From positions 28,272,001-28,336,000 of the forward strand of contig OX597829.1 of the NCBI GenBank assembly GCA_951406725.2: DNA of 64,000 nt. The letters are read 5' to 3'. Below the pieces are notes generated by a model, which saw only the letters and a program-made list of their open reading frames with translations, made no database searches and was not told the DNA's origin. The number at the start of each line of letters is the position of its first letter. The first letter of the stretch is position 1. Below, one piece after another: positions 3,214 to 33,967 of this stretch. Origin of the DNA: Octopus vulgaris (lineage: Eukaryota). The translations under genes and the position numbers were made by a program.

Positions 3214-3248
3214 GTTTCCGACGAAGAGCTCCGCTCGAAACGTTAAAC
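3214..3248 (+). ncRNA. Minimal type-I hammerhead ribozyme-like motif (U4C core variant) in a (TA)n-flanked element at about 3138-3330
   Basis: GTTT-CCGACGA-A-GAGC(TCC)GCTC-GAAA-CG-TT-AAAC: stem I GTTT/AAAC, stem II GAGC/GCTC, palindromic stem III AACGTT. Confidence 0.6.
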
Positions 3249-3326
3249 CCTCCTTCTTTCCTGAGCGTCCAATAATACTATATTTGTTCCACATCCTCGC
3301 ATTGTTGTGTTTTCTTGTTTGGATTA

Positions 3327-3384
<58 letters not shown>

Positions 3385-4184: not shown

Positions 4185-4260
4185 ATATATATATATATAA
4201 ATATATGAAGCAGGTGTATTAATATTATTTCAATAATATTTATATTTTCATGTATGTATA

Positions 4261-7746: not shown

Positions 7747-7781
<35 letters not shown>

Positions 7782-8805: not shown

Positions 8806-8838
<33 letters not shown>

Positions 8839-8948
8839 TACATCAGTACTATAAGGTATTAGTATGTATGTAAGTAAAAAAAGGTTAGTGGTTTGGCAGA
8901 GTGGTGGCTGCAAATGGTCAACTAAAACTGCATGAACCATAGTAATAG

Positions 8949-9059
8949 TCATAACACACAGGCACAAAAACAAATATGTTGTGTTACCCCATTGATTGCG
9001 ACATCCCGAGCAGAATACTTAGGATCATCGATATTTATCTTAGCCAGGTCTTCGTCAAT
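8949..9059 (-). CDS. ILK: Divergent ILK exon, probably terminal: IDEDLAKINIDDPKYSARDVAINGVTQHICFCACVL*
   Basis: TTCTGTTTTAG acceptor in phase 0, matching the previous exon. Begins IDEDL-AKIN like the canonical next ILK exon (IDEDMTARIS.ADVKFS), then diverges; TGA at 8951-8949. A weak internal donor GGG|GTAACA at 8988/8987 is an alternative end. Confidence 0.7.
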   Translation of the reverse strand: MDEDLAKINIDDPKYSARDVAINGVTQHICFCACVL

Positions 9060-10779
9060 CTAAAACAGAACATAGTTATCACAAACACGCACACACAAAC
9101 ACACAGAGAGAAAGAGAAAGAGCAAGAGAGAGAGAGAGACAGAAAGAGATCAAACAATGATGATGATGATGCTTATGATGCTGATAACAACAAGGTTGTG
9201 GTAATAGTGGTAGGGGGATTAGTAATTATGAAATGTTGGGCATGTAGAGGGAGGAACAAGTGATAATGGTTGCATGTGGTGGGAGGGGTTATGTAGAAGT
9301 GGTCCCAATACCATAGGTGTGCATGTTTGTATGAAGAACTAGACAAGCTAATGATGATATTGCATGTGGCAAAAGAAAACTCTTGTAGGACCACACGTGA
9401 CAAAAGAAAAAAAAATCATGTAGGACCAGAAGACACAAGACTAGATAATAATGTACTATACTTATTGCGTTGGGAGGTGGGTGCTAGTGGCAGGAGACAA
9501 TATGTAAAGTAATATAGTGTTACATGTGGAAAAAGTGGTGGGTAGAGATAAAAGAAAAATAGTGAAAAAAATTGTCATTTAGTGTCACATGTCTCCTGGG
9601 GGAATAGAAATCGGAAGAAAATTGGTGACAAACTGAAAACCTTGTGCCACAAGTTTTGTTGGGTATACAGGAGCAAATAAGTATTACATTTGAAGAAGAC
9701 AAGTGTCATGTCTGGGGAGTGAGTAGAGGTAAAAGGATATATTCAAAGGTGCTGGAAATTGCTAGGTATTTGTAGCTAAAGAAGACATTTAAAATAAACT
9801 AACACTGATGTTATATGATGTATAGCTAATTAATAATAATTATTAATTAATCAAACAAATTTATGTATTTACTCAAGAAATTACATTAAAAAAGTCTTTT
9901 CAAAATTATATGAAACATCATTTAATAATTTTTATAAAAAAAAAATTGTATTATTCATACTTAAAGGAATTTTTTGTCTTGTAATAATCAATCATTTCTT
10001 TGAAATAATAGTTAAAATGTAATTGACATGTTGCAGAACTAAATCTAATTTAAGAAAAGTATTATGAGAAATCATTTATTTGAAATGATTTTAAAATTTA
10101 TTTACCTTTTCATGAGACCATAAGTATTAACACCACTATTTATATCAGAAAGGTGAAATGATATATTTAATTAATTCATTTTAAAACGATGATTGGATAA
10201 GTTAGTACTGACAGGGACACAGCTGATGGCAATTATTTTCTCTTCTTAAGAATTGATGAATTCCATTTTAATCAAGTACATTTAGGAATGATGAATACTG
10301 TTTTAATATCAATAATATACATACTGAGAACTAAAAGCAATATTGGATTGAGTGAGGATGTAGGATTGAATAAACTGAGTGAAGACTAAATGATAGTTAA
10401 GCAACAAGGTTGATATGCAGATAGGAACACATGAAACACAGACAAATCGTTAGACAAACAGATACACAGACATGTAGGTAGACAGGTAGGTGGTTAGAAA
10501 GACAAACAGATAGGTACATTATTGTAGGGAGATAGATATTTAGATAAACAGGTAGATGGATAAATATAGTGATATATATATATATACACACACACATACA
10601 TGAGAGGGAGAGAGGAAGAGATACATAGAGAGACAAATACATAGATACATAGACAGTTAGACAACAGATAGATATGAATATGCAGACGAATATATAGGAA
10701 GCTACAAATAGATAGATAAAAAAAAGAGGAAAGAAAAGGGAAACAGAAATAGCTGGAGAGAGAACAAAAGAAAGAAAGT

Positions 10780-10916
<137 letters not shown>

Positions 10917-11632
10917 AGAGAATGAATGTTTCTGACAAAAGTAATGAAATTTACTGATTGCGATAGGGAAAGAACTTCAATATAAATCAAAGAACTCCAC
11001 CATTAAGAGGTTGATTTAACGTTTCATTAATGATGACAACTCATCACACATGGATATGAATTCAAATGTTTGATATTGGTAAATGATTATTTAATTATGT
11101 CAAGTCATAAGAAATATATGGAGGCTGCAAAAATTTGAAAACAACTTCTAGCAAGAAGAAAATAGAAAACTGCTAAGTTTCAATTAAAATTTATTAAATT
11201 GCTCAGTTTGAACATTATAATGACTTTAAGAGTCAGAGTAAATTTGTAAAGGAACAGTTAATTTAATTAAATGATTCCTATAATGGTTAAGATTAACAGA
11301 GATTATAAATAGGAAGTATTTTATATTAATACATTAAATATCTGAAGATACTGAATATAAAAACAATGCAGAAAATTTTTATCTGATGGTAAATGCTTAC
11401 AAGGAAGAAACAATATTTACTTAAATTTATTTTGAAAGAAAACAGTTAAGAATTGTAAAGTATGATAACAATAACAAATTAAGTACAATTTTAAAATATA
11501 ATCCATATAAAAATTAATTAAATACCTGTGTGATTGTGGTGGGGGGAAAGCTGATATGAAATGAGATGAATTTTAAATGAAGGCTCAGTGATGGTTTTAT
11601 TATGAAAAGAAGCATGAAAAAAATCAACTTAC

Positions 11633-11754
11633 CATGACGTGTTTGCTGTTAAGAGCAATATTTGGTATCATGGGTTCCATGGAGTGAAGAAATTCCATAC
11701 CTCTTGCAATATCCAGAGCAAATCTCAATGCTTGGTTTTGATCAACAACAATAT
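11633..11754 (-). CDS. ILK: ILK coding exon: [41 protein letters not shown]
   Basis: TAG acceptor, ATG|GTAAGT donor; 122 nt, phase 1/0. FALD.ARGM.FLH plus the ILK-type degenerate catalytic loop ALNS (no HRD). Confidence 0.96.
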
Positions 11755-14540: not shown

Positions 14541-14662
14541 CTGTTTCTCCATGAAGGACATTATAGAGTGATCCATGGACCATATACTGACTAATAACGA
14601 CCAAGTTAGGACGTTCATTACAACAGGCCAAAACAGGTAGAATATTGGCATGGTTGAATATC
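14541..14662 (-). CDS. ILK: ILK coding exon: RIFNHANILPVLACCNERPNLVVISQYMVHGSLYNVLHGET
   Basis: TTTTCAG acceptor, CAG|GTAATT donor; 122 nt, phase 2/1. RIF.H.N.LPVL and GSLYNVLH motifs. Confidence 0.96.
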
Positions 14663-14712
14663 CTGAAAAGTATAGAATATAATATCAGAATATATATGTA
14701 CACTTATATGAA

Positions 14713-15023
14713 ACAAAGAATGAAGACATATTATCAATGATATATTTAGCTTACATATGTTTCAAATAGTTTAGCACAATTCAATTGGTGCACATTGCAA
14801 TTTGCACATCTAATCATTCCTTCATTTGATCAATAAATTAGCCAGAATTACAGAGCTGCTGATTACCAAACTATTCTTCACAAAGTTAACATAGTTAATT
14901 AATTGATCAAATGAAATACTGATTAAATAAGAAAACCATAATGTGTAGCAGTCGCATTGTGCTAAACTATTCAAAACATTTGTAAACTAAATAAATCATT
15001 GATAATGTATCTTCATTTTTTGT
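14713..15023. mobile_element. MITE-like element with imperfect TIRs of about 68 bp
   Basis: 14713-14780 (ACAAAGAATGAAGACATATTATCAATG...TTTAGCACAAT) is an imperfect reverse complement of 14956-15023. Confidence 0.7.
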
Positions 15024-16559
15024 GATTAACACACTGAAAACAATTGGTAAGATACTTTAGATTTACAAATTGTACTGCTCATAAGAAATGTAAAACAACT
15101 TATACAGATTACTAAAATATCAACTGAACAATTTCAATAACTGGGTTCTATTTCTGTAGACTGCTTAAAGAGATATTCGCCTTATTTTATTTAATCCCTA
15201 TATTTATTCTGTAATAAAACTTCAGTTTACGACATAATTGAGAACATTCCATTTAGGAAGAAACATTTTTATGTTAATGAATGTGAAGACAAAAGCAAAA
15301 AATATAATGAATCTAATTTATATTTCAATTAAATAATTTTATTATATATTTTAATTAGACCATAATTTTGATAGTTTATATTCATCAGACAATATGAAAA
15401 TCCTTAAACTCAGAAGCCCTAGGATCTGACAAAGTTACAAACATATACTCAAGATTGAAAGAATCACTGGAACCCCGAACAACATCTAGAACTATTTAAA
15501 CTGGCACTACAAATTCCAAAGATACTTCTTCCTATGTGCATCCTTATGATATTTAGAAAATTTAAAGGTGGCAAGCTGGCCAAATTGTTAGAGCACTGGG
15601 AAAAATTCTTAGCAGCATTTTGTCTGTCTTAACATGCTGAGTTTGAATGCCACTGGGGTCAACTTTGCCTTTCATCCTTTCAGGGTTGGTAAAATATCCA
15701 ACATTTAATCCAAACACTATACATGAATATTATTAAATCAAGAATAGACAATTGCTTTAATAATAAGATTCATTTGCATCATTCTATCATCAGCAAAACT
15801 TTCAAATCTATCCCAATAAACCACATTTTTTTATTTAAAATTTTTTACATCCAAACCAAATGCAGTGGAAATGAACCTCCAAGACTGGTAGGAGGGAGTT
15901 AAGAAAAAAGGTATACACAAATCAGAGACTTGATCCCAAATGCTTGCAAGGCACCTAATGTGTCTAGATGGTGTTTTATTTTTCAAGTGGGTAAAAGATA
16001 AAAATCTACTGCCCTCATAGGTCATAGGCCTTGATGAAATTTGAACTCAGAATGCAAAGAACAGGAGCAAATACTTTTCTACTCTAGGCATAAGGCTGGA
16101 AATTTTGGGGGGAGGGAGTCAGTTGATTAGATCGACTTAATTTATCGACCCCTAAAAGGATGAAAGGCAAAGTCGATCATGGCGGAATTTGAACTCAGAA
16201 CATAAAGACAGATGAAATATTGCTAAGCATTTTGCCCAGCATGCTAACGTTTCTGCCAGCTCGCTGCCTTGAACAAGAGCAAATACTACAAGTTTAATGT
16301 TATGGCTGTTCTGCTAGTGCACCACCTAGATTAGTACTGACTTTATTGACCTTGAACGGATGAAAGTCAAAGGTGACCTTGGTGTGATTTGAACCCAAAG
16401 CACAGACAGAAGTCAGAACAATTATTAACAGACATTTTATCCAAAACTCTAAAGAATTTGCTAATTTAACCACCTTAAAGATTAAATATTCAATATCTTC
16501 TACTATATAAAATGTTGACCAGCAAACTATCTATCAGGTTGACAAGCCTGTGTAGAATA

Positions 16560-17200
16560 TAACAACAGAACATTTGATATCTGTTATTTCTCCAAGTGAA
16601 GTACCACAAGGTCCAATTCTTTCACCTACTCTTTTTTTGGAATCAATTACCTAACCAAATCCACTGACTCCCTTCTCTACAACAATCTCAAAGAACATCA
16701 TGACTGACTGACAATCCCACTCAATGATAATAAACATACCCTATACATACATATACACACACAGAAGAAAAGAAATTCCAAGAGTTACATTTTTGCAACA
16801 CTACCAGAACACAGAGAAGACATAGTAAAGTAAGCAAAACCATGTGTATTTGACCAACAGAAAGAAACAACCACATTAGCAAACAAACAATACATTAGAT
16901 CCATCAGAGAGTATTGAAAGCCTGCCTAGAATTCACAACAAATTACAAAACCTCTAAAATAGAACACAACATATCACCACAGGCTACACGCAGTCCATAC
17001 CCACTGAACACCAGCACAATAGAGCCAAAGACCACCAGGGCATGAGATGAGCACAGTTTATTGCTGCAGCAAGCAGCTTCCATCCCCAAAGTCTCTGACA
17101 CTATATGTACAGTCACCTCCATCGCTGAAACACATCTACAATACTACAGAACACTACAACATCCATCAATGTTATCTCTCGCTTGATAAACTTAAGAAAC
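16560..17200 (+). mobile_element. Heavily decayed LINE RT remnant (CR1/Jockey group)
   Basis: SEVPQGPILSPTLF at about 16596-16637 resembles the RT motif GVPQGSxLSPxLF; no open frame. Confidence 0.45.
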
Positions 17201-18113
17201 GCACATATACAGGATTAGTAACATCAATAACAGCATTAGTCACAAACACAGTGTTGAGATGCATAGTTACTAAAATAATGGTTACTAATTCAGGCACAAG
17301 ACTGGTAATTTTGAGAGGAAAGGGGTTAGTTAATACCATTGACCCCAGTACTTGAGTGGGACTTTACTGGAGTGATAATATGTGGGATTACAGCATTCAA
17401 CCTTTACCAGCAAGGAAAATAATGGATGTCAAAATGATGGTGATGATACATGAACAGGTAGATACTATCAGCTTCCAAATATACTCCCTTCGAAATCATG
17501 AGCAAAAAACATAATTGTACTTGTCTGATATTTAGTTCCCAATTGTTCAACCACCTCCCATAAGAAATCAGAAATATAAGATGGGTCTCAAGTGAAACAT
17601 TAAAAAAAAAAAAACACTGGATAAACTCCTAACAATGATACTAGACAAACAAATCATTCAAAGATTCACTCATGGAAGATCAGCTACTACAAACTCAGTC
17701 ATAGCCCAACTTCTAGTCATAAAGCAACAACAAGACAAAGAAAATAAATTAAAGCAGTGCTCCAGCATGGTCACATTCCTATGACTGAAACCACTAAAAG
17801 AATAATAGAAAGAATGACAGTGATGGTGATGATGATGTGGATGATGAGGATAGTGTACAAATAAGGCAGCAAACTTCGGGCCCATATTGGAAATTGATTC
17901 TGCATAATTCTATAATTTTTCCATTCTCAATAAAACTTTGTAAGTTCCTTGACATATTCTAAGTGTATGCTATATTTCTAAAACAATATATAACTAGCAA
18001 GTGAGTGTAATAAAAGTTCAAATAATTTGTGCAACTTAATCTTCTATAAGATATTAAAAAATGCATTTATTTGGAAGCATTTATAGCAGGAACTTTGGGA
18101 TTCTGATCCTTAC

Positions 18114-18223
18114 CTTAATCGAGGAAATTCTTCTTGAAAATCACGAGACATTCTTAAAGTACACTCTCTCAGTTTTAATTCTTTGGCCACAATTTCACTC
18201 CCCTGCCAAACACCTTGCAATGT
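18114..18223 (-). CDS. ILK: ILK coding exon (pseudokinase N-lobe): [36 protein letters not shown]
   Basis: TTTTAG acceptor, AG|GTAAGG donor; 110 nt, phase 0/2. WQG..IVAK and SRDF.EE.PRLR motifs. Confidence 0.96.
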
Positions 18224-19418
18224 CTAAAATAAAAACAAAATCAAACAGTTGTGACCATTAATTGCATTAACTTAATGTTTTCATTAGCATATTTCTAATA
18301 CCATTCATTACATTGTTATGTAAATAATCAAGAATTTGCAAAGATATATCAAAATAATCAATATTTTGGCCAGTATGGGGTAGATGTCTTCTACTATAGT
18401 CCCAGGTCGATTAAAGCCTTGTGAGTGGATTTGGCAGACAAACTGAAAGAAACCTGTCATATAGATGTGTGTGTAACTGTCTCTTTGCTTTGACATCACA
18501 TGATAGTTGTAAACAAGTGACAAGCAAGTGGTGTCCTTTGCTCTTAATCTTCTATGAAAAACATGTCTAGTCATGTGGAAATATGACCTTATTTGGAAAT
18601 AGGTAGGGCTTGGTGGCAAGAAGGGTATCTTCATAGAAAAAAATCTGCCTCAACAAATTGTGTCTGACCCATCTCATCTGAGCATGGAAAATGGGCATTG
18701 AAATGACAATTGTGATGATGATAACATTCTGTTGTTCTTTGGAACAAGATAAAAAAGATGGTCTTAGATGAAATTATGATTAAGTTAAATTTGAATATGA
18801 AATTTTTAAATTGAGAGGTTTTGTACTGGAGGTTTCAGGCATGGTGGTTTCAAAATGAGTCCAGCCACTAATATACAGAGGTGGGCTAAAGATCATGTGT
18901 CTTAATCACAAATTATAATTAGCATTTCTGAAAAAACTTTAATAAAGAAGCTTGCTTGCAAACCATGTGCTTTCATTTTCAGCCCCATTGCATAGCAACT
19001 TTGGCAAGTGTCTTCTACTACAACTCCAAATCAATCAAAAACCTTGTGAGTAGACTGGGAAGACGCCAACCAAAGAGAAGCCTGTCATGCACATACACAC
19101 ACCGAGAGTCTTTCAGTTTCCATCTGTGAAATCCACTCACAAGGCCTGGCTTCATAATGTTGTAGACTCCTAACTCTATATCTTCTACTGCTACAACAAA
19201 AGCTTCTGATCATCAGAACTTGTTACTTGCATACCCACTCTCAATATCAGCATCCCACTGAAATTCCCTTCTTGACAAAGTTTTTTGTTTTACAGACATC
19301 AAATTCCAAACTTTGGCAACACTAATCACATCAACATCAAAGTGATTGTGCCATCCTTCTGACAAAACCCATAAAAATCAAATTTACCTTGGATTTTAAT
19401 AGTTAAGTTAATACTTAC

Positions 19419-19504
19419 ACGTCCTGAATGGGTGTTGGCAAGTACATGTGCAAGCTTCAGTTGCGAACACTTAATACCAGTGTATCTGGATAATGTAGCA
19501 TCTC
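19419..19504 (-). CDS. ILK: ILK coding exon: RDATLSRYTGIKCSQLKLAHVLANTHSGR
   Basis: TTTTCAG acceptor, GTAAGT donor; 86 nt, phase 1/0. RDATLSR..GI and the HSG P-loop equivalent match ILK. Confidence 0.93.
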
Positions 19505-19749
19505 CTGAAAAGTTGAAGATAATTTTACATCAATAAATGAATTGAAACAATTTCTAATGTTAATGCAGTAGATTTTTTAATCGCTAGCATTTAGAATAAC
19601 AGCTAAACAATATACAACCTCTAACTCTTCAGTCAAATTACTAATAAAACATAAATACCTAAATACTAAATCTCACTTAGAAAAATTCTTATCTCCAGTT
19701 TCAAGCACTTTTTTTACTTTCAATAAAAATAATTATTTTCTAGCATATA

Positions 19750-20143
19750 CTCTTTTACTCTTTTACTTGTTTCAGTCATTTTGATTGTGGCCATGTTGAG
19801 CAAATCGACTCCAGAACTTATTCTTTGTAAGCCTAGTACTTATTCTACCTGTCTCATTTGCCGAACCGCTAAGTTACGGGGATGTAAACACACCAGCATC
19901 GGTTGTCAAGTGATGTTGGGGTGACAAACACAGACACACAAACATACACACACACACATATATATATACACACATATACACATATATACGACGGGCTTCT
20001 TTCAGTTTCCGTCTACCAAATCCACTCACATGGCTTTGGTCAGCCCAAGGCCACAGTAGAAGACACTTGCTCAAGGTGCAATGCAGTGGGACTGAACCTG
20101 GAACCACGTGGTTGGTAAGCAAGCTACTTACCACACAGCCACT
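19750..20143 (-). mobile_element. tRNA-derived SINE, family A
   Basis: Reverse complement of the 5731-6117 element. Confidence 0.85.
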
Positions 20144-20523
20144 CGTAAGCCTGTGTACAAAGCCTGAAATTTAGGTGAGGAAGCTAGTCAATATCATTTG
20201 ACTCCAGTACATTACTTGCACATAATTTCTATCAGCCCTAGAATGATGATAGACAAAGCTGACTTTGGTGGGATCCAAACCCAGAACATAGAGCCAGAAA
20301 AAATGCAGGAAGATATTTTGTCTGACACACTTAATAACTTTACCAATCCAATAATGATGATTCCTTACAAGTAAAAAACATATAACTATGTTTATGGTAT
20401 TTTCTATGATTTATTTTAACTATTTTTAAATATCTCTTGGTATGAAACAACAGTTTGAAAGTTTGTGATTATTTAAGACAGAAGACAAAAACGTGTTGTG
20501 GTCAGATGCAATATAATACTTAC

Positions 20524-20604
20524 GACTGCGGGTTTTACTACCAAGCCAACTTCGATCTTTGAAAGGAATCTTCTTTAGATCTCGAGCTAATTCAACAGCA
20601 CGGT
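20524..20604 (-). CDS. ILK: ILK coding exon (linker): DRAVELARDLKKIPFKDRSWLGSKTRS
   Basis: T-rich tract plus TAG acceptor, GTAAGT donor; 81 nt, phase 1/1. Contains the ILK motif IP[FY]KDxxWxGxxTR. Confidence 0.94.
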
Positions 20605-21212
20605 CTAAAGAGAAAAAAAAAAGTAAAAATAATAACTGTAAATATATGGAAATGTAAATATTTTGATTGTGCAGTTGAACTGTAAACTTTTAGCATTTAA
20701 ACCAGCCAAATTTGGCCCAAGTTTAGGTATCAAACCAATTTTATGTATCAAACTGTTCAGATCTGGCCTCTCACACCTACCCTACAATGTCACTCTAAAA
20801 TTAAACAACCATGCATCGAAGTCTCAAAACTATGAGATAATCCATGATTAATGCAAAATAATGTGTATTCAGAGCAATCTGAATACTAAAGGGTTAAAGA
20901 ATGATGAATCAAAGTGAAGAAATGACTCTCTCTGTCTGTCTGTCTCTCTCTCTGTATTTGTTTGTGTATGCGTGTGTGATGAAAAATTAACAGATGAAAT
21001 GGTACAACAATCACTGTCAATCTAAAATCTCAGAAGTGACCCATGCAAGCATGGAGAAGTAGACATCAAAATGATGATGATGACAACAATGATAATGACA
21101 TAGTTTTTTTAATGCTTTTTTTTTTTAGTTATTAAACAAGGTAAAAGCCAAAAACTCATGGTTTTTAATACATGAAAAATAACAAATTAAAAAAACAACA
21201 CAAAGTGAATAC

Positions 21213-21309
21213 CTTTTAAAACTTGTCTGAGAGCTGGTCTTGCTTTATCCAAAGGTGTTTCATCAAAGATATTTGCAATGCCTAACTGGGCTCCCATATT
21301 AAGAAGATC
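21213..21309 (-). CDS. ILK: ILK coding exon: DLLNMGAQLGIANIFDETPLDKARPALRQVLK
   Basis: TTGCAG acceptor, AAG|GTATTC donor; 97 nt, phase 0/1. Aligns with ILK [32 protein letters not shown]. Confidence 0.93.
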
Positions 21310-21705
21310 CTGCAATTTAAATTATCAAACAACATTACTTTTCAACCATTCACCTGATACCAATCCACCTGAGACCACCCTAAACTTACTTTTCTAAAGT
21401 AATCTGAATTAAAACCTTCCATCAAAATTTCGTGTTAATTTATGTTCCAAAATTTAAAAACAACAGAACTATTATACTAAATTCTTCATTATTTTCAAAA
21501 TTAACAGAAACAAAGCAAGTGATAATTTCAGCAGAAATATGCTAGCAAAATGGTTAAAAATAATAATTTCTTATTTTCTAGGCAAGCATGGTTTGTAAAT
21601 GTGTCAATTAATTACCATTCCAGCAACTGTATGTGTGCTTACTAGCACACATACAATCTCCTAATATAAGAATGAGCATAATGTTTTTATATATTTGCGT
21701 ATATG

Positions 21706-22096
21706 TAGAGTGTCTCTGTGGTAAGTAGCTTGCTTACCAACCACATAGTTCTGGGTTCAGTCCCACTGCGTGGCACCTTGGACAAGTGTCTTCTACTATA
21801 GCCTCGGGCTGACCAAAGTCTTGTGAGTAGAGTTGGTAGATGGAAACTGGAAGAAGCCTGTCGTATATATGTATATGTATATATATGTGTGTGTGTATTT
21901 GTGTTTGTCCCCCCCCCCAACATCGCTTGACAACTGATGCTGGTGTGCTTACGTCCCCGTAACTTAGCGGTTTGGCAAAAGTGACTGATAGAATAAGTAC
22001 TAGGCTTCCAAAGAATAAGTCCTGGGGTCGATTTCCTCGACTGAAGGTGGTGCTCCAGCATGGCCGCAGTCAAATGACTGAAATAAGTAAAAGAGT
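21706..22096 (+). mobile_element. tRNA-derived SINE, family A
   Basis: Same head, body and tail as 5731-6117. Confidence 0.85.
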
Positions 22097-25000
22097 ATAT
22101 ATTTGTCCAGAATCACACTGGACACAGGGGAGGAGAGAAAATAGTAATCCAGTGAAGGAGAAGTAGTAAGAGTAATAGCCCTTGACTGAGAGGGAGTGAG
22201 AGAAAGTAATAGCAATGAGAGAAAGGAAGGGGTGATAGATGAATAAGGAAGGAAGGGGTGAAAAAAATCAATGTTTCAACTCTGTGAGTATATAATAATG
22301 AAATTATTGTATACAGTGCTCAGATGCACCACATATGTATGTGTGTGTGTGTGTGTACAAGGGAAGTATGCGAATGTTTGTATGAGTGATTATTATGTAC
22401 CTTATTTTGTATCTTATTTATATATAAAATACTACAATTAGCTGTCATTTTTGATGGCATGGGGTCAGCTAGTGTGACTAAATAATAGATAACTGATAGG
22501 TTGTCCAATGTATACCAATACAAAACGAAGATGAGATGAAATTAATGAAACCCAAATTGTAAGCTAACAGTCTTAAGTATAAACAGATGAACTCTCTTTT
22601 ATGAAACACATCTACATATAATTATGAAAACTATACATCCTGTTGTTGGTGTATTAATCCTTTAAATGTTCACAGAAGCTAGCAGCTGTATGTAATAATG
22701 ACTACCACTACCACCACCAGTACTATCCTCTGTCCCATCAGTCAACAAGGGAACCTCAACCTGTTAGACACAGCAACCAAATCTCTCCAAACCCACACTT
22801 CATTTTAGAAAAAAAAATGAAGGAAACTCTGAACAAAATAGTCCATGGTATACAAAATGAATGGATTGTTACATCTTTTATCATAGGTTTGATTAATCGG
22901 AGCTGATCTGGGACTAAACAGTATTACTACCTCCACCACCACTATATATAACTGGCACTCTGTTGGTGACAATGACTAGGGTTCCAATCAATTGGAATAG
23001 CTTGCTTGTGAAATTAATGTGCAAGTGGCTGAGTACTCCACAGACATAGGAGCCCATAATATAGTTCTTAAGAGAGACTCAGCATGACACAGAATGTGAC
23101 ATGGTTGGCCCTTTGAAATACAAGTACAGCTCATTTTTGCCAGCTGAATGAGATGGAACAACGTGAAATAAAGTGTCTTGCTCAAGGACACAATGTACTA
23201 CCAGTGATCGAACTCATGATCTTACAATCATGGGCCGAATACATTAACCACTTCAGAAGAGTACTTTACAGGTGTGTCATTCATAAAAGAGATATCTCTC
23301 AGAAATTATATAGGTTACTAATTAACAGATTTCTATTCAGTTTATCTTGTCTTTCATTCATCTATCAAAATGTGAGAATCATATTCTGATTATACTAATC
23401 AAATTCCTTTACTTCCCCACTTGTATTGAACATTTACATATTTTCCCAGGTGACTATGACAAGCTTTTTGTATATATCATTAAAAGGAATTAAATTTACT
23501 TGATTATCTGACAGGCTATCAGATTCTTTTGTTACACAAGATGCAATAAAATAGCTATAATTATTACTAACCATTGATTGAAGACTATGGAGAACTCTGA
23601 TAGTTCACTAGAGGTATTAGGTTCTACACCATCTAAATAACATGACTATAGTGTGGATTCACTCTACTCTTAGCATTGTGGCAGGTATTTAAGATAGTGA
23701 GAAGTCTTGAGTAGTCTTGTCAATAGAAATTCTAATATAGTATATACAAACAAAAATGACTATATTTGACATGTCAACAGTAAATATATGGAAGATTATG
23801 TGAAATGTTTGATGGTGCATGACATGAATATAGATGATGACATGACAAGCAAAGAAGATGTGCTGTTGTATGTCAGTGTAAAATGTATAATGAACGTAAA
23901 GAAGTTTTATGAGTTGCGTGGAAAATGTAGGGGAATGTAAAGCAAGTGAGCAGGATTAAATTACAAAGGTGGCGAGTTGGCAGAATCATTAGTATGCTGG
24001 GCAAAATGTTTAGCGATATTTCATCTGCCGTTACATTCTGAGTTCAAATTCCATCAACGTCAACTTTGCCTTTCATCCTTTCGGGGCCAATAAATTAAGT
24101 ACCAGTTACACGCTGGGGTCAATGAAATTGACTTAATCCCTTTGTCTGTCCTTGTTTGTCCCCTCTATGTTTAGCCCCTTGTGGGCAATAAGGACTAAAT
24201 TAATATATGTACAAGATTTGTAGTGTTGTATGTAGAGAACAATACGGAGTGTATATAATATATATATGATAGCATATGACAATGAAATATGGGCAGTGAG
24301 TACAAAGTGCTTGAAGAGTAAAAAGATTCTTTAGAAAATTGAGCAGGAGTAATTAGAGGGAATAATTTATTACAAAGTCTTAAATAAACACTTGTTTGTC
24401 AAATCGAGTAACTTCATATGTCCTTCTGTGAACATACATCAACTTACTAGGGTTTCCCCCTCAATCAAATTTACTCAAAGGGCATTAGATGGTCTGGGGT
24501 AATAGTTAAGATACTGAGCATTGGAACTGAACTTGAAGTCAAGTTATTGTAAAGTAAACTTCTTAAGCACACAGTCATGCTAGTGCCTCTAATTTTCTTA
24601 ACTATTAAAACAGAAAAGTGATAAGATGGTGATGTGGAAGAATCATTAGCATGCCGGGCAAAATGCTCAGCAGTATTTCATCCGTCTTAACAGTCCGTGT
24701 TCACATTCTGCCAAGGTGGACGTTGCTTTTCATCCTTTTGGTGCCAATAAAATAAGTACCAGTTGGATACTGGGGTCAATGTGATCAACTTAACCATGCC
24801 CCCCAAATTGCTGGCCTTGTACCAAACTTTGAAACCATTATTACAGAACAATGCAATTAGCTAATAGTAAAATGATTAAGTTTTATGCCGTCTAAATTTC
24901 CAAGTTTCCAAATTATTATCCTATAATAGTGACCATCCATTTAATTTATTATTTGACTAATCCATATTATCCCATTAGCTCACATTAAAAAATAAACTTG

Positions 25001-25117
25001 ACAATTAGAGCACAGAGATGTGGACAAGCATAAGGAAACTTAACTTGATGATGAATAAATAACACATTTAGATCAGATAATTAAAAAAAATGCATAAAAT
25101 TATAGATTTTTATTTAC

Positions 25118-25213
25118 CTGTGATATATCACCATAGTTCCAAAAACAAGCATAGTGTAGAGGTGTGTTTCCGTGTTCGTTAATTGCATTTATATTGGCTT
25201 TGTTTTGCATCAA
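25118..25213 (-). CDS. ILK: ILK coding exon: [32 protein letters not shown]
   Basis: TTTTCAG acceptor, CAG|GTAAAT donor; 96 nt, phase 0/0. Contains the ILK motif [14 protein letters not shown]. Confidence 0.96.
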
Positions 25214-25333
25214 CTGAAAATACATGAAACACACAAATTTATATATATATATATATATATACCGGAGTAAACACATAAATGTGAAACAAGGTGGAAAAAA
25301 AGAGTACTCAAATACCAGTGGTAGAGTAATATG

Positions 25334-25556
25334 CTTTATTTAAAGCAGCAGAAAATTCAACAAAATCTGTTACTCTGAGTTTCTCGTTGCCGTTCATCAG
25401 ACAGTTTTTGCTAGAATGGAACCGATATATCAATTCAATCCAGAGTCTGGATTGAATTGATATATCGGTTCCATTCTAGCAAAAACTGTCTGATGAACGG
25501 CAACGAGAAACTCAGAGTAACAGATTTTGTTGAATTTTCTGCTGCTTTAAATAAAG
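25334..25556. repeat. Perfect palindrome (111-bp arms, 1-nt centre) in a (TA)n tract; probable inverted Penelope-like terminal repeat
   Basis: 25334-25444 is the exact reverse complement of 25446-25556. An unpaired extension of about 70 bp lies at 25262-25333, with TA runs on both sides. Confidence 0.92.
25486..25523 (+). ncRNA. Minimal type-I hammerhead ribozyme motif (mirror copy at 25367-25404, minus strand)
   Basis: CTGT-CTGATGA-ACG(GCAA)CGA-GAAA-CTCAGAG-TA-ACAG: canonical CUGAUGA/GAAA core, GUA triplet, GNRA-capped stem II with a mismatched base pair at its base. Confidence 0.75.
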
Positions 25557-26057
25557 TATATATATATATATATATATATCAGCAACATCATCATCATTGA
25601 CAAAACAGCCATTTTTCCATACTTTCATAAATCAGACAGAGTTTAATGGTGCAGATTTTCAATGGTCAGATGGCTTACCAGTCACCAATTAGTTTTCCCA
25701 TTTCCAGCAAGATAATACTTTTCCATGGCCAGACATGCTTTCAAAGAATATTGGAAATGAATGACACTGCTTGTTTGGCATTGACATGTACTGTCAATGT
25801 TAAAACAAGGAAACACAACCACAAACACACACACACACACCAGGTCTTTCAGTTTTCATCTACCAAATCCACTCACAAAGTTTTAGTCATCCCAGGGCTA
25901 TAGTAAAAGGTGACAGGCAGCAAGACTGAACTCAAGTGGTTGCAATGTAAACTTCTTAACCATACAGCCACACATAGACCTATTGAGCAATTTCAATTTT
26001 AACCATAAATATCATGCAATACTTCATCTAATAATGCTTCATTAATTAAACATACAT

Positions 26058-26790
26058 ATGAGGGGTGCTGAAAAGTTACTGGTTTTCAGGGTATCATAAA
26101 AGACCTGGCTGGAGGCCCAACTTTCCAAGTATTTTTACAGGGCTTTAGAAAAACAGAAGGTCTGCTGCAATGTGTGAATCTGAGAGGGGAATATCTATAT
26201 ATATAAAACTGTAGTTGTGTGAGTGTCTGTCCCCTTCGATTTAGATTCCTAACTACTCCCACATTTTGCGGTGCAGTTTAACCAAATTCGGGTATCTTAT
26301 AGTCGTGATTAATATCGAGCCCGTCTGGCTATTAACGCGCGTCTACGATGAGTCTACGATTTAAAAAATAATTTAACATCATTTTTTATTCCATTTTAAT
26401 GCATAATTTTTCGTGTGTCGATGGCGGTGGAGTTGGCGTCCACGCTCAAACACCTGCACCTGTGTTTGCTTCTCCTCCTTCTTCCCTCCCTCGTGAAGCT
26501 GTGGGGAAGGGAGTGTAAGGAAATCAATGTCGTAAAGCGTTGTCAAGGAGACCAGCGTTCTTTTAGAACGACTTCATGGCTTGAAGACACCAAAACAGAA
26601 ATGGCTAAGAAAGCCCGAATTGGCATCTATAAAGGAAGTAACTCTCTAAAAATGCTTATATAGTTATTTCCCTTACAAACCCGAGCAACGTCGGGCAATA
26701 CTGCTAGTATTGAATAAAATCATAAGTAACTGAACCTCTTCCTGCAGTTTGTTTTACCCAAAGCCAGGAACTTTTCAGCACCCCCTTGTA
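26058..26790. mobile_element. Mariner-type MITE interrupted by a Helitron; related copies at about 51297-51478 and 56245-56449
   Basis: TIRs GAGGGGTGCTGAAAAGTTACTGG and CCAGGAACTTTTCAGCACCCCCTTG with TA flanks. Confidence 0.8.
26194..26707 (+). mobile_element. Non-autonomous Helitron
   Basis: 5' TC, subterminal hairpin CCCGAGCAACGTCGGG, 3' CTAG; inserted between A and T with no TSD. Confidence 0.88.
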
Positions 26791-27176
26791 TATGTACATA
26801 TATATATATAAGCATACTTACATATAATATATATGCATATATACAACATATATGCATGCATATACACACATACACACACATACATATATACTATATATAA
26901 ACCATGAGATAAACATGGAATGAAAAAATCGTATAAATAAATAAAAGCATGTTAAAAATAAATAAATAAAAGCATGTTAAAAACTATCCTGTACCGAATA
27001 TTTAAATTCGTGAACTTTGTAAATATTTCTTTCAATAATTTATCGTAGTTGTTTATAAATAGCGAACATTAAAATAGAGAGACTGAGAGTCTTCGCCGAT
27101 TTCATGTCGATACAGAAGTTGACATTGAGAAGCTTTTTTAAAGAAGCGAACCATAAATATAAAGCAATATTTTTTA

Positions 27177-27419
27177 TCTTTATATATAAAACTGAAGTTG
27201 TGTGTGTGAGTGTCTGTCTACTTCGATTTAGATTCCTAACTACTCCCACATTTTGCAGTTCAGTTTAACCAAAAGTGGGTATCTTATAGTCGTGATTCAT
27301 ATTGAGCCCTTCTGGGTATTAGCGCGCGTCTACGATGAGTCTATGATTAAAAAAAAAAATTACCATCATTTTTCCGCATTTCCCTTACAAACCCGAGCAA
27401 CGCCGGGTGATACTGCTAG
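27177..27419 (+). mobile_element. Non-autonomous Helitron, shorter copy of the same family
   Basis: Same 5' TC...TATATAAAACTG start, hairpin CCCGAGCAACGCCGGG, CTAG end, A|T site. Confidence 0.88.
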
Positions 27420-27599
27420 TTTTTAATAAAAAAAAACTAAATGAAAACCCTATTACCTATTATATGTCAGAGGTCAAATTATTCATGCATCACAAGTAAT
27501 GAAGTAATTGGTGAAGCCATTTTCATGTGAAAAGTGAATACACATACATCTCTAGTGTATAAATTAGATATATATATATATAAATTTATATTTACATAC

Positions 27600-28500
27600 A
27601 CATATGATGATGGCTATCCACTCATGATTGAGGAAGACCATCTCTGACCATTAAGAACATTGTGCACCCAGACAAATTCATATTCTACACTAGTGGCTCT
27701 GTTTGTGACTAATGAGCCCAACTCTTGAGAAACATAAAGGTCCACAAATATTGCAGACCAAGCTTACTCTATTAACTACACTGGTGGTGCATTTTTGAGC
27801 AGCTCGCTTAAATTCTGCCTGAAAAATGCGTGCCTTTTTTTTCCTTCAAAAATACCCACTTTTTCTTTTACTTGTTTCTTCCATTGGTGACAATGATATG
27901 TGTTGCCTTCTCAATTGACCTCCCATATTTCACTTTCCATCAATGAGTGCTTTACACAATTCTTAAATCATAGTCTTGGTTTCTTCGGGGGGGGGGGGGG
28001 GGGTACTTTCCACAAACAAGTTTGCCATGTATCTGCATCTGCATAGAGATCCTCCAATCATAAGCCCAATCAAGGTGACCAGTCAGTGTATACAGTGCAC
28101 ATACCATCACCTCAATACTCAGAATGGATGTTGGCTCCTCTCAAGGCCTCTGTACCTGGAATCTGCAAGGACCAGCCAACATTCAGAATGTATGTCTGAT
28201 GAAAGCATTCAAGGACCTTTATGTAATGCTTATAAAGGGTTCATATCTCACATGGGCAAAGAAACAACATCAGCACACATATATAGTACATAGTGATGAT
28301 TTATTGGGAATAGACACAAGATTCAAGAACCCTGAAGGAATTGGTTACTTTCTGAAGCCTTAAAGATATTTCACCTTCTGGGGAGTGAGAATGGCTGAAT
28401 GTGCTGCCCAGATAGACAAACTTGCCAACCACTTGCAATACTATTACTTCAACTAAGATAGATGGTTTCATATATGGATTTCCTGATGCAAGCTGGAACA
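27600..28500 (-). mobile_element. Old decayed RTE (BovB-like) LINE fragments
   Basis: LQVVGKFVYLGSTFS...EGEISLRLQKVTNSFRVL resembles the RTE post-RT motif LEVVDKFxYLGS...EIxxRIxKAxxAFxxL. Confidence 0.6.
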
Positions 28501-28712
28501 TATGCATATACACATATACAAACATATACATACATACAGACAAAGTGGAACCAAAGAAGTCAGTTGATCAGAGACAAAATCACAATGGCTACTTAGGATC
28601 AGACCTACTACAATGGTCAGTAATCCACTACATTTATCACAAAGCCATTTTACCTCCTTAATCTCAATCTCCTAATGACAAGTGTAGTGTTTTTATATAT
28701 TTGTATATATAT

Positions 28713-31590
28713 ATCATCATCATCATCATCATCGTTTAACGTCCGCTTTCCATGCTAGCATGGGTTGGACGGTTCAACTGGGGTCTGGCAAGCCCGAAGG
28801 CTGCACCAGGCCAGTCAGATCTGGCAGTGTTTCTACAGCTGGATGCCCTTCCTAACGCCAACCACTCCGAGAGTGTAGTGGGTGATTTTATGTGCCACCG
28901 ACACAGGTGCCAGACGAGGCTGGCAGACGGCCACACTCGGATGGTGTTTTTTATGTGCCACCGACACAGGTGCCAGACGAGGCTGGCTGACGGCCACGCT
29001 CGGATGGTGTTTTCTTATGTGTCACCGACACAGGTGCGAGACGGGGCTGGCGGACGGTCACGCTCGGATGGTGTTTGTTACGTGCCCTCAGCACGGAGGC
29101 CAGTCGTTGCGGTACTGGCTACGATCACGTTCGGATGGTTTTCTTATGTGCCACCGGCACTGGTACCACAAGGATACAAATTTCATTGATGTTCATCTAT
29201 TTTGATTTGGTTCGATTTGATTTGATTTGATTCGATTCGATTCTCACTTGCCTCAACAGGTCTTCACAAGTGTCACAAGAAGGAAGGTATGCACAGGTGG
29301 ACTGACTACGTCCCAGGTAGGGGCCACGGATTATGGCTTCACTAGTCTTGCCGGGTCTTCTCACGCACAGCATACTTCCATAGGTCTCGGTCTCTAGTCA
29401 TTTCCATGGTGAGACCTAACGTCCGAAGGTCGTGCTTCACCACTTCGTCCCAGGTTTTCCTGGGTCTACCTCTTCCACGGGTTCCCTCAACTGCTAGGGA
29501 TTGGCACTTTCTCACACACCTATCTTCGTCCATTCTCGCCACATGACCATACCAGCGCAATCGTCTCTCTTGCACACAACAACTGATGCTTCTTAGGTAC
29601 AACATTTCTCTCAAGGTACTAACGCTCTGTCGAGTAAGTACACTGACATTACACATCCATCGGAGCATACTGGCTTCATTCCTCACAAGCTTACGCATGT
29701 CCTCAGCAGTCACGGCCCATGTTTCACTGCCATGTAGCATAGCTGTTCGTACACATGCATCATACAGTCTGCCTTTTACTCTGAGCGAGAGGCCTTTAGT
29801 CACCAGCAGAGGTAAGAGCTCCCTAAACTTTGCCCAGGCTATTCTTATTCTAGCAGTTACACTTTCAGCGCACCCGCCCCCACTACTGACTTGGTCACCT
29901 AGATAGCGGAAGCTATCAACTACTTCTAGTTTTTCCCCCGGAAAGTGACGGAAGTTGTTTTCTGCAGATTTTCGGAGGTCAATGCTCCAGAGCATCTGCC
30001 ACATACAAAAACTATCTTCCCATTTAGCCTACCTTTGACATTGCTGCACCTCTTATGTGTCCATAGCTTACACTGGGTACATCTTATAGAGTTTCTACCT
30101 ACACCTTTTCTACAGATCGAGCAGGGCCATCTTCCTGAGGATATTTGTGGATTTTCTAACTTTCTACTTATTAGTACTTTGGTTTTAGCTAGGTTGACTC
30201 TAAGGCCCCTCGATTCTAAACCCTCCTTCCACACCTGGAACTTCTCCTCCAGTTCTGATAGTGACTCAGCGATTAGAGCGAGGTCGTCAGCATAGAGGAG
30301 CTCCCAGGGGCAACCTGTCTTGAATTCCTCCACAATTGCCTGGAGGACTATGATAAATAGGAGGGGGCTGAGTACTGAACCCTGGTGGACCCCAACCTCT
30401 ACCTTGAATTCTTCTGTGTACATGCTGCCAACTCTAACCTTACTTACGGCATCTCTGTACATGGCTTGCACAGCCCTCACCAGCCATTCATCTATCCCTA
30501 GTTTCCTCATTGACCATCAGATGAGGGAACGGGGGACCCTATCAAAGGCTTTCTCCATGTCAACGAAAGCCAGGTACAGGGGCTTATCTTTGGCTAGGTA
30601 TTTCTCCTGCAGCTGCCTTACCAGGAATATAGCATCAGTGGTGCTTTTCCCTGGGACAAACCCAAACTGCATCTCATCTAAACTAACTCTCTCTCTAATT
30701 AGTTGGGCTATGACCCTCTCCGTAACCTTCATTACCTGATCCAACAGCTTGATACCTCTGTAATTATTTGTATCCAGGGCATCACCTTTACCTTTGTAGC
30801 AGTTGACTAGTATGCTGCTACACCAGTCATTGGGTATGACTCCTTCGTGTATCACCTGGTTGACTATACGGGTGACTAGGTTATAGCCGACACTGCCAGA
30901 TATTTTGAGCATCTCTGCAGTAATTCCTGATGGGCCTGGGGCTTTCCCTGTCTTCATGCTTCTAATTGCCTTAGCTACCACGGAACTATCAACTCGGATA
31001 GCTGGTCCCTCTGTTGGGTCAACATTCGGCAGACTCTCTTTATCCCATTCATTTTCTTTATTCAGCAACCTTTCATAGTGGCATCTCCAAACCTCTCTCT
31101 TTGCATCCTCATTTAGCGCAAGTGAACCATCATCCATGCGAACACACTTCTCTCCTACCACATCACGATTCTCTCTCACACACTGTCTTGCAACACGAAA
31201 TACCTCAAGTCTTTCATCCTCACGGCTCAGAACATTGGCAAATTTTTTCTTATCCGCTTCCCCTCTGGCTAAATAAACCTGTCTCCTAGCTTCCCTTTTG
31301 GCTGTCTGATACAATTCCCTGCTACCACCGTTCTTCCAGTCCTTCCAAGCCTGTCTCTTTTGTCTAATAGCCCTGTCAACCACAGTGTTCCACCACCATG
31401 TTACTCTGGGTCGAGATGGTACTTTGCTCCATCCACAGATCTGGTCAGTGGCTGTCAGCAGATTGTCCCGTAGGAATCTCCAGTTGTCTTCCACATTAAG
31501 TGAAGCTATATCCCCTTCTATTTCGTCAGAGGCTTCGAGTAGTATGTCTCTAAATCTCTGTCCATTTGCAGGATCTTTAAGCTTCCAGAC
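28713..31590 (-). mobile_element. 5'-truncated RTE-clade LINE (RT, PHD-like finger, 3' UTR, (ATG)n tail)
   Basis: ORFs 30517-31494, 29926-30510 and 29342-30004 join into one RT-bearing ORF (KAPGPSGI, QFGFVPGKSTTDAIF, AFVDMEKAFD, GVHQGSVLSP, YADD, FRYLG). It is broken by one TGA (30519-30517) and a 1-bp deletion near 29940. No endonuclease domain is present. Confidence 0.93.
28885..29165. repeat. Tandem repeats of about 60 bp in the LINE 3' UTR
   Basis: About 4.5 units of TTATGTGCCACCGACACAGGTGCCAGACGAGGCTGGCAGACGGCCACACTCGGATGGTGTT. Related arrays at about 38510-38830 and 61075-61240. Confidence 0.85.
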
Positions 31591-32570
31591 CCTTGTCCAA
31601 AATCACACATAGGAGTGAATGGTGAAGGAGAAAGAGAAAATAGTAATTCAGTGAAGGAAAAGTAGTGTGAGTGGTAGCCATGACCGAGAGGGAGTGAGAG
31701 AAAGTAACAGCAATGAGAGGGAGGAAGTGGCAAAGAGAGCACCATGTATCTTCTATGATAATAATCTACTATAATAATATTCTTGTGTATTTCTCCATCA
31801 CAACATATGAATGAGAAAGGAAGGGGTGAGATCCACCAACAGAAGTGGGATGGTGAAAAGTCAACAGTGAAACAAAAATCAAACAGCACTCAAGCTTTGT
31901 GTGAGTATATGTGTGTGCATGTGTTTAAAAGGGAGGAATGAGAATGTGTGTGTGTGTGTTTGTGTAAAATATATTTATATATGAGTGAGTGTATGTGTAT
32001 TTGAGTGAGTATATGTGTTTGTGTATGTTTATTTAGAAAGATAAATAGAAAATAGAATTACAGACACATGCACATTTACACATACATACATACATATATA
32101 TAAACAGACACACTTAAATAGGAAGAAAGCAAGCTGTGTAAAAGTATAGAAAACTGTATTTGCAACAGACTGTGCAACTCACACATATATATGTATACAC
32201 ACACACTCACACAGAGTTGAAGTACTGTTTGATTTTTTTTTCAACTTTTTGTACCCTTTTTATATATAAAATACTACTATAAGCCATCATTTTTGTCAGC
32301 ACAGGACCAGCTATTACATAATTATCTCCTGTTGTTAATGAACTCAGGAATTCTGGTCCTTATTATCATTTCAACCATAATATTCTATATGTTGAAAAAA
32401 TAATTTTTGAATTTTAAATGTTTTAGAATATCCACCCCCCACCACACACAAACTTTTTCCTCTAGCTGGATACTTTTCCCAGAATAAACCTTCTATTATT
32501 TGACTGAACTCGACACCCTAACTACTGAGCCATGCACTTCAATCATGAGGTATTGAGTTCAATTATGCAA

Positions 32571-32800
32571 GGCGGCGAGCTGGCAGAAACGTTAGCATGC
32601 CGGGCGAAATGCTTAGCGGTATTTCGTCTGCGTTATGTTGTGAGTTCGAATTCCGCCGAGGTCGACTTTGCCTTTCATCCTTTCGGGGTCAATAAATTAA
32701 GTACCAGTTACACACTGGGGTCGATGTAATCGACTTAATACCTATGTCTGTCCTTGTTTGTCCCCTCTGTGTTTAGCCCCTTGTGGGTAGTAAAGAAATA
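32571..32800 (+). mobile_element. tRNA-derived SINE, family B; other copies at about 50-210(-), 16075-16270(-), 23968-24192(+), 24630-24835(+), 36640-36825(-) and 55875-56070(-)
   Basis: Head GGCGGCGAGCTGGCAGAA...GAGTTCGAATTCC and conserved core GTCGACTTTGCCTTTCATCCTTTCGGGGTC recur throughout the window. Confidence 0.85.
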
Positions 32801-33377
32801 GGTATTGAGTTCAATTCTTAGACTGGGGTGTGCGTTTATTTCACGTTGCTACAGTTCACTCAGCTGTAGAAATGAGTTGTGACATCACTGGTGCCAAGCT
32901 GTAGCGGCCTTTGCCTTTCCCTTGGATAACATCAGTGGCTTGGAGAGGAGAGGCTGATATGAATGGGCAACTGCTGGTCTTCCATAAAAAACAACCTTGC
33001 CTGAACTTGTGCTTCCGAGGGGAACTTTCTAGAGCAATCCCATGGTCATTCATGACCGAAGGGGATCTTTACCCTTTATCCTTTTACTTGACCGAGATGT
33101 ATATCTTTATCAGTCAGTTCAACTACAGAAAGTGGGGTACTGTTTCTAAGTAAGGACACAATATGTTTATTGTTTGAATTTATGATCTTGCAACCAACAG
33201 CTCACATATTAACCATGTTGTGAATGCCTTGGCTCAAAGTACAACATCAGGGATGAGAATACTAACACATTTATAGAGGTCAGTTAACAACATATCTATT
33301 TGGTCATTAATACAAATTTATTGAAAATTTTCAAGTAATGCTCACAATAGTAAAATATTAAAAAAAGAAAAAGATGT

Positions 33378-33791
33378 AGGCATAGGAGTGGCTGTGTGGT
33401 AAGTAGCTTGCTTACCAACCACATGGTTCCAGGTTCAGTCCCACTGCGTGGCACCTTGGGCAAGTGTCTTCTACTATAGCCTCGGGCCGACCAAAGCCTT
33501 GTGATTGGATTTGGTAACGGAAACTGAAAGAAGTCCGTCATATATATGTATATATATGTATGTGTGTGTGTATACATTTGTATACCTGTGTTTGTCCCCC
33601 CAACACCGCTTGACAACCGATGCTGGTGTGTTCACGTCCCTGTAACTTAGCGATTCAGCAAAAGAGACCAATAGAATAAGTACTAGGCTTACAAAGAATA
33701 AGCCCTGGTGTCGATTTGCTCGACTAAAAGCGGTGCTCCAGCATGGCTGCAGTCAAATAACTGAAACAAGTAAAAAGAGAGAAAAAAGAGT
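33378..33791 (+). mobile_element. tRNA-derived SINE, family A, ending about 10 bp from an ILK splice donor
   Basis: Full-length copy; its tail abuts the donor at 33801. Confidence 0.85.
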
Positions 33792-33801
33792 ATGTATTTA
33801 C

Positions 33802-33967
33802 CCTCATAGCAATTTCTTTTTGCCCATGACTACAAGCAAGATGTAGAGCAGTATCATCACCCATGTTTGTGGCATTGATACGTGCTCCTCGTGCAATCAG
33901 CATATCCACAATATTGAGGCGGCCCTCCTTTGCAGCCCAATGCAAAAGACTAAATCGATGGTCATCT
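33802..33967 (-). CDS. ILK: ILK coding exon (ankyrin repeats): (G)[55 protein letters not shown]
   Basis: Polypyrimidine tract plus TAG acceptor (33970-33968) and GTAAAT donor; 166 nt. Translation closely matches the ILK ankyrin region DDHGFSPLHWACREG...GARIN..N.GDDTPLHLAASHG. Confidence 0.96.

What the first reader, a model, noticed from the sequence alone, without database searches (positions are those of the whole stretch)
8949..9059. Divergent ILK exon giving a truncated pseudokinase with a Cys-rich tail
Seen: after ...NSKHVM the next in-phase exon reads IDEDLAKINIDDPKYSARDVAINGVTQHICFCACVL*. The first 16 or so residues resemble the canonical exon (IDEDMTARISMADVKFS, with D-x-K kept); the rest is unrelated. 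It has several CpGs in an AT-rich context. I found no canonical downstream ILK exons (APAW.APE, ADMWSF, MEIGMK, PGIS) in 1-8900. Established: ILK's C-lobe binds parvin, and its ankyrin repeats bind PINCH. Inference: either an alternative last exon made by exon duplication, with the canonical exons further downstream, or a truncated paralog. The product would keep PINCH binding but lose about 100 residues including the parvin site. The ICFCACVL end could be lipidated; it is not a canonical CaaX, as Cys is at -3 and -5.
Basis: partly seen in the sequence, partly recalled or inferred. Interest (0 to 1): 0.8.

Follow-up and report, generated by a model that had tools for sequence, protein, structure and literature searches.

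The report
Ancient optional exon in octopus ILK
This is not a cut-short protein but an optional 72-base exon of the octopus integrin-linked kinase gene, kept in molluscs, annelids, brachiopods and ribbon worms, that adds a partial second copy of the motif beside the ATP pocket and likely tunes this cell-adhesion scaffold in some tissues.

Summary
The exon is real; the truncated Cys-tail reading is not supported. The coding exon is 9059-8988 (minus strand, 72 nt, 24 aa) and ends at GGG|GTAACA. The three missing C-lobe exons lie 8.7-11.6 kb beyond window position 1, and ILK is single-copy. All 4 runs laid on the exon splice 8988 to the canonical exon. Read-through depth (3.0) matches intron background (2.6-3.3), against 78.5 for the spliced exon. 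Inclusion varies by sample, from undetected to about half to nearly all. Long isoforms occur in cephalopods, gastropods, bivalves, a chiton, annelids, a brachiopod and nemerteans. The first 15 residues are almost invariant, and the donor is GGG|GTA in 40 of 40 other loci. The read-through tail is unconserved. The motif is in 0 of 76 named non-spiralian ILKs. The exon resembles the start of the next exon and repeats the D-x-K motif that binds Mg-ATP in ILK. Databases list it as isoform X1; seven literature searches found no description. Tissue and structural effect are untested.

The parts
8988..9059 (-). 72-nt phase-0 cassette exon of ILK, 24 aa (IDEDLAKINIDDPKYSARDVAING)
   Evidence: Translation; matches residues 324-347 of Octopus sinensis ILK isoform X1; spliced in RNA
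9060..9061 (-). AG splice acceptor of the cassette exon
   Evidence: Sequence; contigs of X3, X5 and X8 continue here into the upstream exon
8982..8987 (-). GTAACA splice donor after GGG; starts a 17,670-nt intron that leads to the canonical exon outside the window
   Evidence: Loose ends at 8988 read the canonical exon in 4 of 4 runs; GGG|GTA in frame in 40 of 40 other loci
8949..8987 (-). Intron start that reads VTQHICFCACVL* if the donor is not used; not part of the main mRNA
   Evidence: Depth 2.98 against intron background 2.6-3.3 in X3; no coverage in X24, X5 or X8; tail unconserved
11633..11754 (-). Upstream constitutive exon ending ...NSKHVM, donor GTAAGT
   Evidence: matches solved ILK kinase domains
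9060..11632 (-). 2,573-nt intron between the upstream exon and the cassette
14542..33967 (-). Seven further ILK coding exons (tblastn matches near 33966-33799, 25225-25118, 21312-21214, 20605-20525, 19508-19419, 18223-18113, 14667-14542)
   Evidence: the first coding exon (residues 1-30) was not found in the window
8858..8890 (-). ACTAAC and ACTAAT about 100-130 nt after the donor; candidate QKI/HOW-type splicing elements (motif name recalled, untested)

Best explanation
9059-8988 is an in-frame 72-nt cassette exon of the single octopus ILK gene, spliced between the NSKHVM exon and the canonical next exon, that likely arose by partial tandem duplication of that next exon early in spiralian evolution and likely gives some tissues a full-length 474-aa ILK with a modified ATP-pocket region. 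Shown: skipping gives the 450-aa form and inclusion the 474-aa form; both keep the ankyrin repeats and the whole C-lobe, and inclusion differs between samples. Inferred (about 0.55 among structural options): the 24 residues bulge out at the turn between the two strands before the Mg-binding D-x-K motif. The canonical copy would still form the pocket, and the 15 near-invariant residues would form a fixed surface that binds a partner or packs on the kinase, tuning the ILK-PINCH-parvin scaffold. The tissue (muscle or nerve are my guesses) is not shown.
For: Canonical exons found downstream with 97-100% identity to O. sinensis ILK. One match each for two ILK exons in G000. RNA: the cassette is joined at both ends in contigs of X3, X5 and X8 (depth 78.5, 90.1, 131.8), and 4 of 4 raw reads of X24 join 8988 to the canonical exon. 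The downstream GT-AG joints are present in X24, X23, X21 and X8. Inclusion varies: X8 131.8 of 264.1 (about half); X5 shows no skip branch among the pieces listed; X21 and X23 hold the downstream exons at depth 133 but next to none of the 15 cassette words. Paired long and short isoforms are on record for Octopus, Patella, Haliotis, Biomphalaria, Pomacea, oysters, Liolophura, Lingula, Owenia, Tubulanus and Lineus. Over 31 distinct long forms, 14 of the first 15 positions are 97-100% identical. In 40 of 40 metagenome loci the exon is 72, 78 or 81 nt with an in-frame GGG|GTA donor; the upstream exon is found in 35 of 40 and the canonical exon in 6 of 40. Synonymous codons vary at every one of the 15 positions. 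Human ILK D339 binds the cation and K341 the phosphates (PMC4718504, passages); the insert keeps D-x-K in register. For the loop-out model: cestode ILKs keep DED[IV]AKI but lose the insert's D-P-K, while the canonical D-x-K stays.
Against: No structure: both AlphaFold models have pLDDT below 50 over the C-lobe, so the packing is pure inference. Sample labels are coded, so tissue specificity is inferred from differences between samples, and contig depth is a poor measure of expression. X24 gave only 4 reads, none across the 9060 acceptor. Part of the invariance is built in: the DNA pattern fixed 13 residues and the 31-form table required DEDLAKIN. The length-based detection was motif-free and found the same motif. 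About 19 of 26 dereplicated loci come from one clade. Absence outside Spiralia rests on annotated proteins (best 120 of 601, plus cluster members), not on genomes. The long form is the rarer one in assemblies (2 against 285 contigs in oyster, 2 against 104 in one cephalopod cluster).
Confidence: 0.85

Rival explanations
1. Same cassette exon, different mechanism. The insert takes over the strand and D-x-K slot of the pseudo-active site, and the canonical copy is pushed into the activation segment near the parvin contact. Splicing would then switch the ATP pocket itself, possibly with two registers in exchange.
For: The insert aligns in register from A-K-I onward and keeps D-x-K. Its 15 residues are constrained although the short isoform does not need them. 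K341 relays ATP binding to the parvin salt bridge at R349 in simulations (PMC8933812, passages).
Against: The insert is one residue shorter in the turn. It has Asp before and Pro after the key Asp, where the canonical copy has a small residue and Tyr or Val. Cestode inserts lose D-P-K. The models were uninformative.
Confidence: 0.3
2. Besides the cassette use, the exon sometimes serves as a last exon (donor read-through with intronic polyadenylation), giving a minor truncated ILK that keeps the PINCH-binding repeats but lacks the C-lobe.
For: Three spliced, truncated forms ending in read-through exist in other spiralians (P0037, P0048, P0236). One X3 contig runs from the exon into the intron. 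ATTAAA lies about 640 nt after the donor.
Against: That contig's depth equals intron background, and 3 of 4 runs show none. The tails share nothing: 15 of 40 loci stop right after Val, and the others run 5-62 residues. The first AATAAA is 2.5 kb away in an AT-rich intron. Unspliced pre-mRNA from a 17.7-kb intron explains such contigs.
Confidence: 0.1
3. One reading: a truncated ILK or paralog whose Cys-rich end is lipidated.
For: The open frame does end in ICFCACVL*.
Against: Complete downstream exons, a single locus, a used donor and no conserved tail. Cys is frequent in many of the unrelated tails because these intron starts are TG-rich.
Confidence: 0.02

Closest known systems
Integrin-linked kinase (ILK / PAT-4) pseudokinase scaffold, human structures 3KMU and 3KMW
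   Same: Ankyrin repeats plus pseudokinase domain; E 3.9e-105 to 3kmu_A; D-x-K in place of DFG; no catalytic Asp.
   Different: The solved chains and 76 named non-spiralian ILKs lack the 21-27-aa insert. The three human isoforms in PMC8799556 (passages) lose N-terminal parts and are unrelated to this event.
RefSeq/UniProt ILK isoform X1 of Octopus sinensis, O. bimaculoides and other spiralians (e.g. XP_029648883.1, XP_014769821.1)
   Same: The same exon, already present in automatic gene models, with isoform X2 as the skipped form.
   Different: Only a pipeline label; I found no paper on its origin, conservation, regulation or function.
Tandem exon duplication-derived splice events (PMC8373072, PMC9741552; search listing and start of abstract only)
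   Same: Homologous neighbouring exons, ancient and kept under selection.
   Different: Those are mutually exclusive substitutions. Here the copy is partial (about 16 of 33 residues) and is added in front of the original, so both copies lie in one protein.

Membership tests
ILK / PAT-4 | N-terminal ankyrin repeats plus kinase-like domain, orthologous to ILK | tested here: met
ILK / PAT-4 | Complete C-lobe encoded and spliced | tested here: met
ILK / PAT-4 | Binds Mg-ATP, parvin, PINCH and kindlin | not testable with these tools
   Inferred from orthology; papers read as passages
Cassette (skipped) exon | AG/GT ends, length a multiple of three, both junctions in RNA | tested here: met
Cassette (skipped) exon | A skipped form exists | tested here: met
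   450-aa isoforms; X21 and X23 hold downstream exons but next to no cassette words; X8 branches at the canonical acceptor
Tissue-specific exon | Inclusion tied to a named tissue or stage | tested here: inconclusive
   Inclusion differs between samples, also within one study (X1 against X23, X4 against X21), but labels are coded
Mutually exclusive tandem-duplicated exons | Homology between neighbouring exons | tested here: met
   0 of 20,000 shuffles reach the score
Mutually exclusive tandem-duplicated exons | One copy replaces the other | tested here: not met
   The cassette splices onto the canonical exon; both copies lie in the 474-aa form
Alternative last exon / truncated paralog | Transcripts end after the stop at 8949, or a second locus exists | tested here: not met
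   3' end data not available
CaaX or palmitoylated C-terminus | Conserved terminal Cys motif | tested here: not met
   0 of 41 read-through tails match C-aliphatic-aliphatic-X; 21 distinct unrelated tails

The most novel reading that the evidence does not exclude
A spiralian-wide regulated exon supplies a second, alternative D-x-K metal-binding motif, so that splicing swaps the pseudo-active site of ILK and lengthens its activation segment next to parvin: a splice switch for ATP-dependent mechanical stability of adhesion sites, kept since the Cambrian.
Probability: 0.3. Interest if true: 0.7.

Novelty: new variant of a known kind. Interest (0 to 1): 0.45.

Why it matters
What ATP binding does for the catalytically dead ILK is still debated. 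Here is a natural, ancient variant that repeats exactly the motif that binds Mg-ATP, and it can be compared with its short twin from the same animal. It also adds a deeply conserved alternative exon to the adhesion machinery of molluscs, annelids and their relatives. The exon itself is already in automatic annotations, and the lipidated truncated protein proposed at the first stage is not supported, which lowers the surprise.

Tried and rejected
AlphaFold on alignments of 24 long and 22 short isoforms gave mean pLDDT 53.9 and 59.3, below 50 over the C-lobe; the models were not used and no fold search was run. The search of 50%-identity protein representatives was not available, so distant groups (rotifers, planarians, trematodes, cnidarians) were not sampled. 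The run search listed no holder on record as RNA; the RNA label of the contig runs is a guess, though they show spliced joints. In one search, repeats in the introns swamped the loose-end table, so the skip junction was not read directly and inclusion was estimated from contig depths. Splicing-motif test: TGCATG after the donor in 16 of 26 dereplicated loci (8.8 expected) and 0 of 26 before the exon (3.4 expected), but the loci are mostly one clade and the octopus lacks the motif; kept as a lead only. No complex prediction was run. Earlier findings of the scan: none. Literature searches listed no paper on this exon by title or start of abstract; the library lacks most subscription papers, and no supplements were read, where splicing atlases might list it. 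P0132 looked like an insert by a pattern slip and has normal spacing.

Full report
Observation. The segment follows a TTTTAG acceptor and is in phase with the exon 11754-11633 that ends NSKHVM. That upstream exon matches solved ILK kinase domains and is 100% identical to Octopus sinensis ILK, so the window holds an octopus ILK gene. The 151 bases around the segment occur once in G000.

The gene is complete. I took 100 kb beyond window position 1 and searched it together with the window using O. sinensis ILK isoform X1, P0002. Residues 324-347 map to 9059-8988. Residues 348-381, 380-425 and 425-474 map to three exons 8.7, 10.6 and 11.4 kb beyond position 1, at 97-100% identity, ending in a normal stop. 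Searches of G000 with the upstream exon and with the canonical exon gave one match each, so there is no sign of a paralog. The first coding exon was not found in the window.

The exon ends at 8988. Four runs were laid on 8845-9700. In X3, X5 and X8, contigs cover 8988-9060 at depth 78.5, 90.1 and 131.8; their loose ends read the upstream exon on one side and the canonical exon on the other. In raw RNA reads (X24), 4 of 4 reads laid join 8988 to the canonical exon; none crossed the acceptor. One X3 contig runs from the exon through the proposed tail at depth 2.98, the same as intron pieces upstream (2.6 and 3.27); the other three runs show nothing there. The downstream exons are joined by GT-AG introns in all 4 runs.

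Inclusion varies. In X8 the common downstream contig has depth 264.1 and begins at the canonical acceptor, against 131.8 for the cassette: about half. In X5 the listed contigs pass through both junctions with no skip branch. X21 and X23 hold the downstream exons at depth 133 in long contigs but next to none of the 15 sampled cassette words, while other runs of the same studies hold them. In X24, 4 reads cross the cassette junction against 34 across the next one. These are rough measures; 7 of the 24 listed runs were laid and the tissues are coded.

Conservation. Long and short isoforms are both on record for Octopus, Patella, Haliotis, Biomphalaria, Pomacea, oysters, the chiton Liolophura, the brachiopod Lingula, the annelid Owenia and the nemerteans Tubulanus and Lineus. 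Over 31 distinct long forms, 14 of the first 15 positions are 97-100% identical and one varies (I, V or F); the last 6-12 residues vary in sequence and length. A DNA pattern found 40 metagenome loci. In 40 of 40 the exon is 72, 78 or 81 nt and ends at an in-frame GGG|GTA; 35 of 40 show the upstream exon and 6 of 40 reach the canonical exon. Synonymous codons vary at all 15 positions, which points to selection on the protein. The pattern fixed 13 residues, so amino-acid invariance in these loci is built in, and about 19 of 26 dereplicated loci are one clade. Cestode ILKs carry a related insert starting DED[IV]AKI. The motif is in 0 of 76 named arthropod, tardigrade, priapulid, echinoderm, hemichordate and fish ILKs (counted by hand, tested; one is a fragment). 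This samples annotated proteins only, the best 120 of 601 hits plus cluster members.

The tail. Reading through the donor gives 21 unrelated tails of 1-62 residues in 41 sequences; 15 of 40 loci stop right after Val, and none matches a CaaX pattern. Against my reading, three spliced proteins from other spiralians do end in such read-through (P0037, P0048, P0236), so a minor last-exon use is not excluded. Their tails are unrelated to each other.

Origin and mechanism. The insert aligns to the start of the next exon with 9 identities in 17 columns and one gap; 0 of 20,000 shuffles reach the score, and 51 of 20,000 do once the first five residues are removed. Partial tandem duplication is the simplest origin (inference). 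In human ILK the DFG motif is DVK: Asp339 alone holds the cation and Lys341 contacts the phosphates (PMC4718504, passages). Lys341 also links ATP to a parvin salt bridge in simulations (PMC8933812, passages). The insert lies just before this motif and repeats it as D-P-K. Only one copy can fill the slot. I favour the insert looping out at the turn before the motif, with the canonical copy in place, because the insert's turn is one residue short, it has Asp and Pro around the key Asp, and cestodes lose its D-P-K while keeping the canonical one. The alternative, that the insert takes the slot, would explain its invariance well and gets 0.3. Structure prediction could not decide. Secondary-structure assignments here are recalled from kinase architecture, not computed.

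Known or new. The exon is in automatic annotations as isoform X1. A review of ILK isoforms covers only three human forms in the passages I saw (PMC8799556). Seven searches listed nothing on this exon; supplements were not read. It differs from known tandem-duplicated exon substitutions (listing only) in being additive rather than mutually exclusive. Verdict: a real, ancient, variably included cassette exon, a new variant of a known kind, interest 0.45. The truncated lipidated protein is not supported.

Noticed in passing
P0126, P0237 (oyster ILK): A different 7-aa insert at the same junction, also starting Ile-Asp; possibly a second small alternative exon in oysters.
   Followed up: no
P0059-P0063, P0105 (cestode ILK): All six cestode ILKs seen carry a 17-27-aa insert starting DED[IV]AKIG; it may be a constitutive, degenerate descendant of the same exon.
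   Followed up: partly
P0037, P0048, P0236: Spliced ILK forms of 356-361 aa from other spiralians that end in read-through of the cassette donor, with unrelated tails.
   Followed up: partly
L013-L052, first 250 nt after the donor: TGCATG in 16 of 26 dereplicated loci (8.8 expected) and none before the exon; CTAAC in 10 (2.7 expected). Rbfox- and QKI-type motifs by recall; the loci are not independent.
   Followed up: partly
window 63532-63905: A coding-like stretch occurs twice about 230 bp apart next to a long (TA)n array; local duplication or assembly artefact.
   Followed up: no
window 40984-41553: Broken frames on the minus strand resembling a mariner-type transposase (label recalled, not tested).
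   Followed up: no
window 27693-31500: GC- and CpG-rich block inside an ILK intron with LINE-like fragments (label recalled, not tested).
   Followed up: no
L012 285-510 and 1606-1819: Highly repeated SINE-like pieces in the downstream ILK introns that attract thousands of RNA reads.
   Followed up: no
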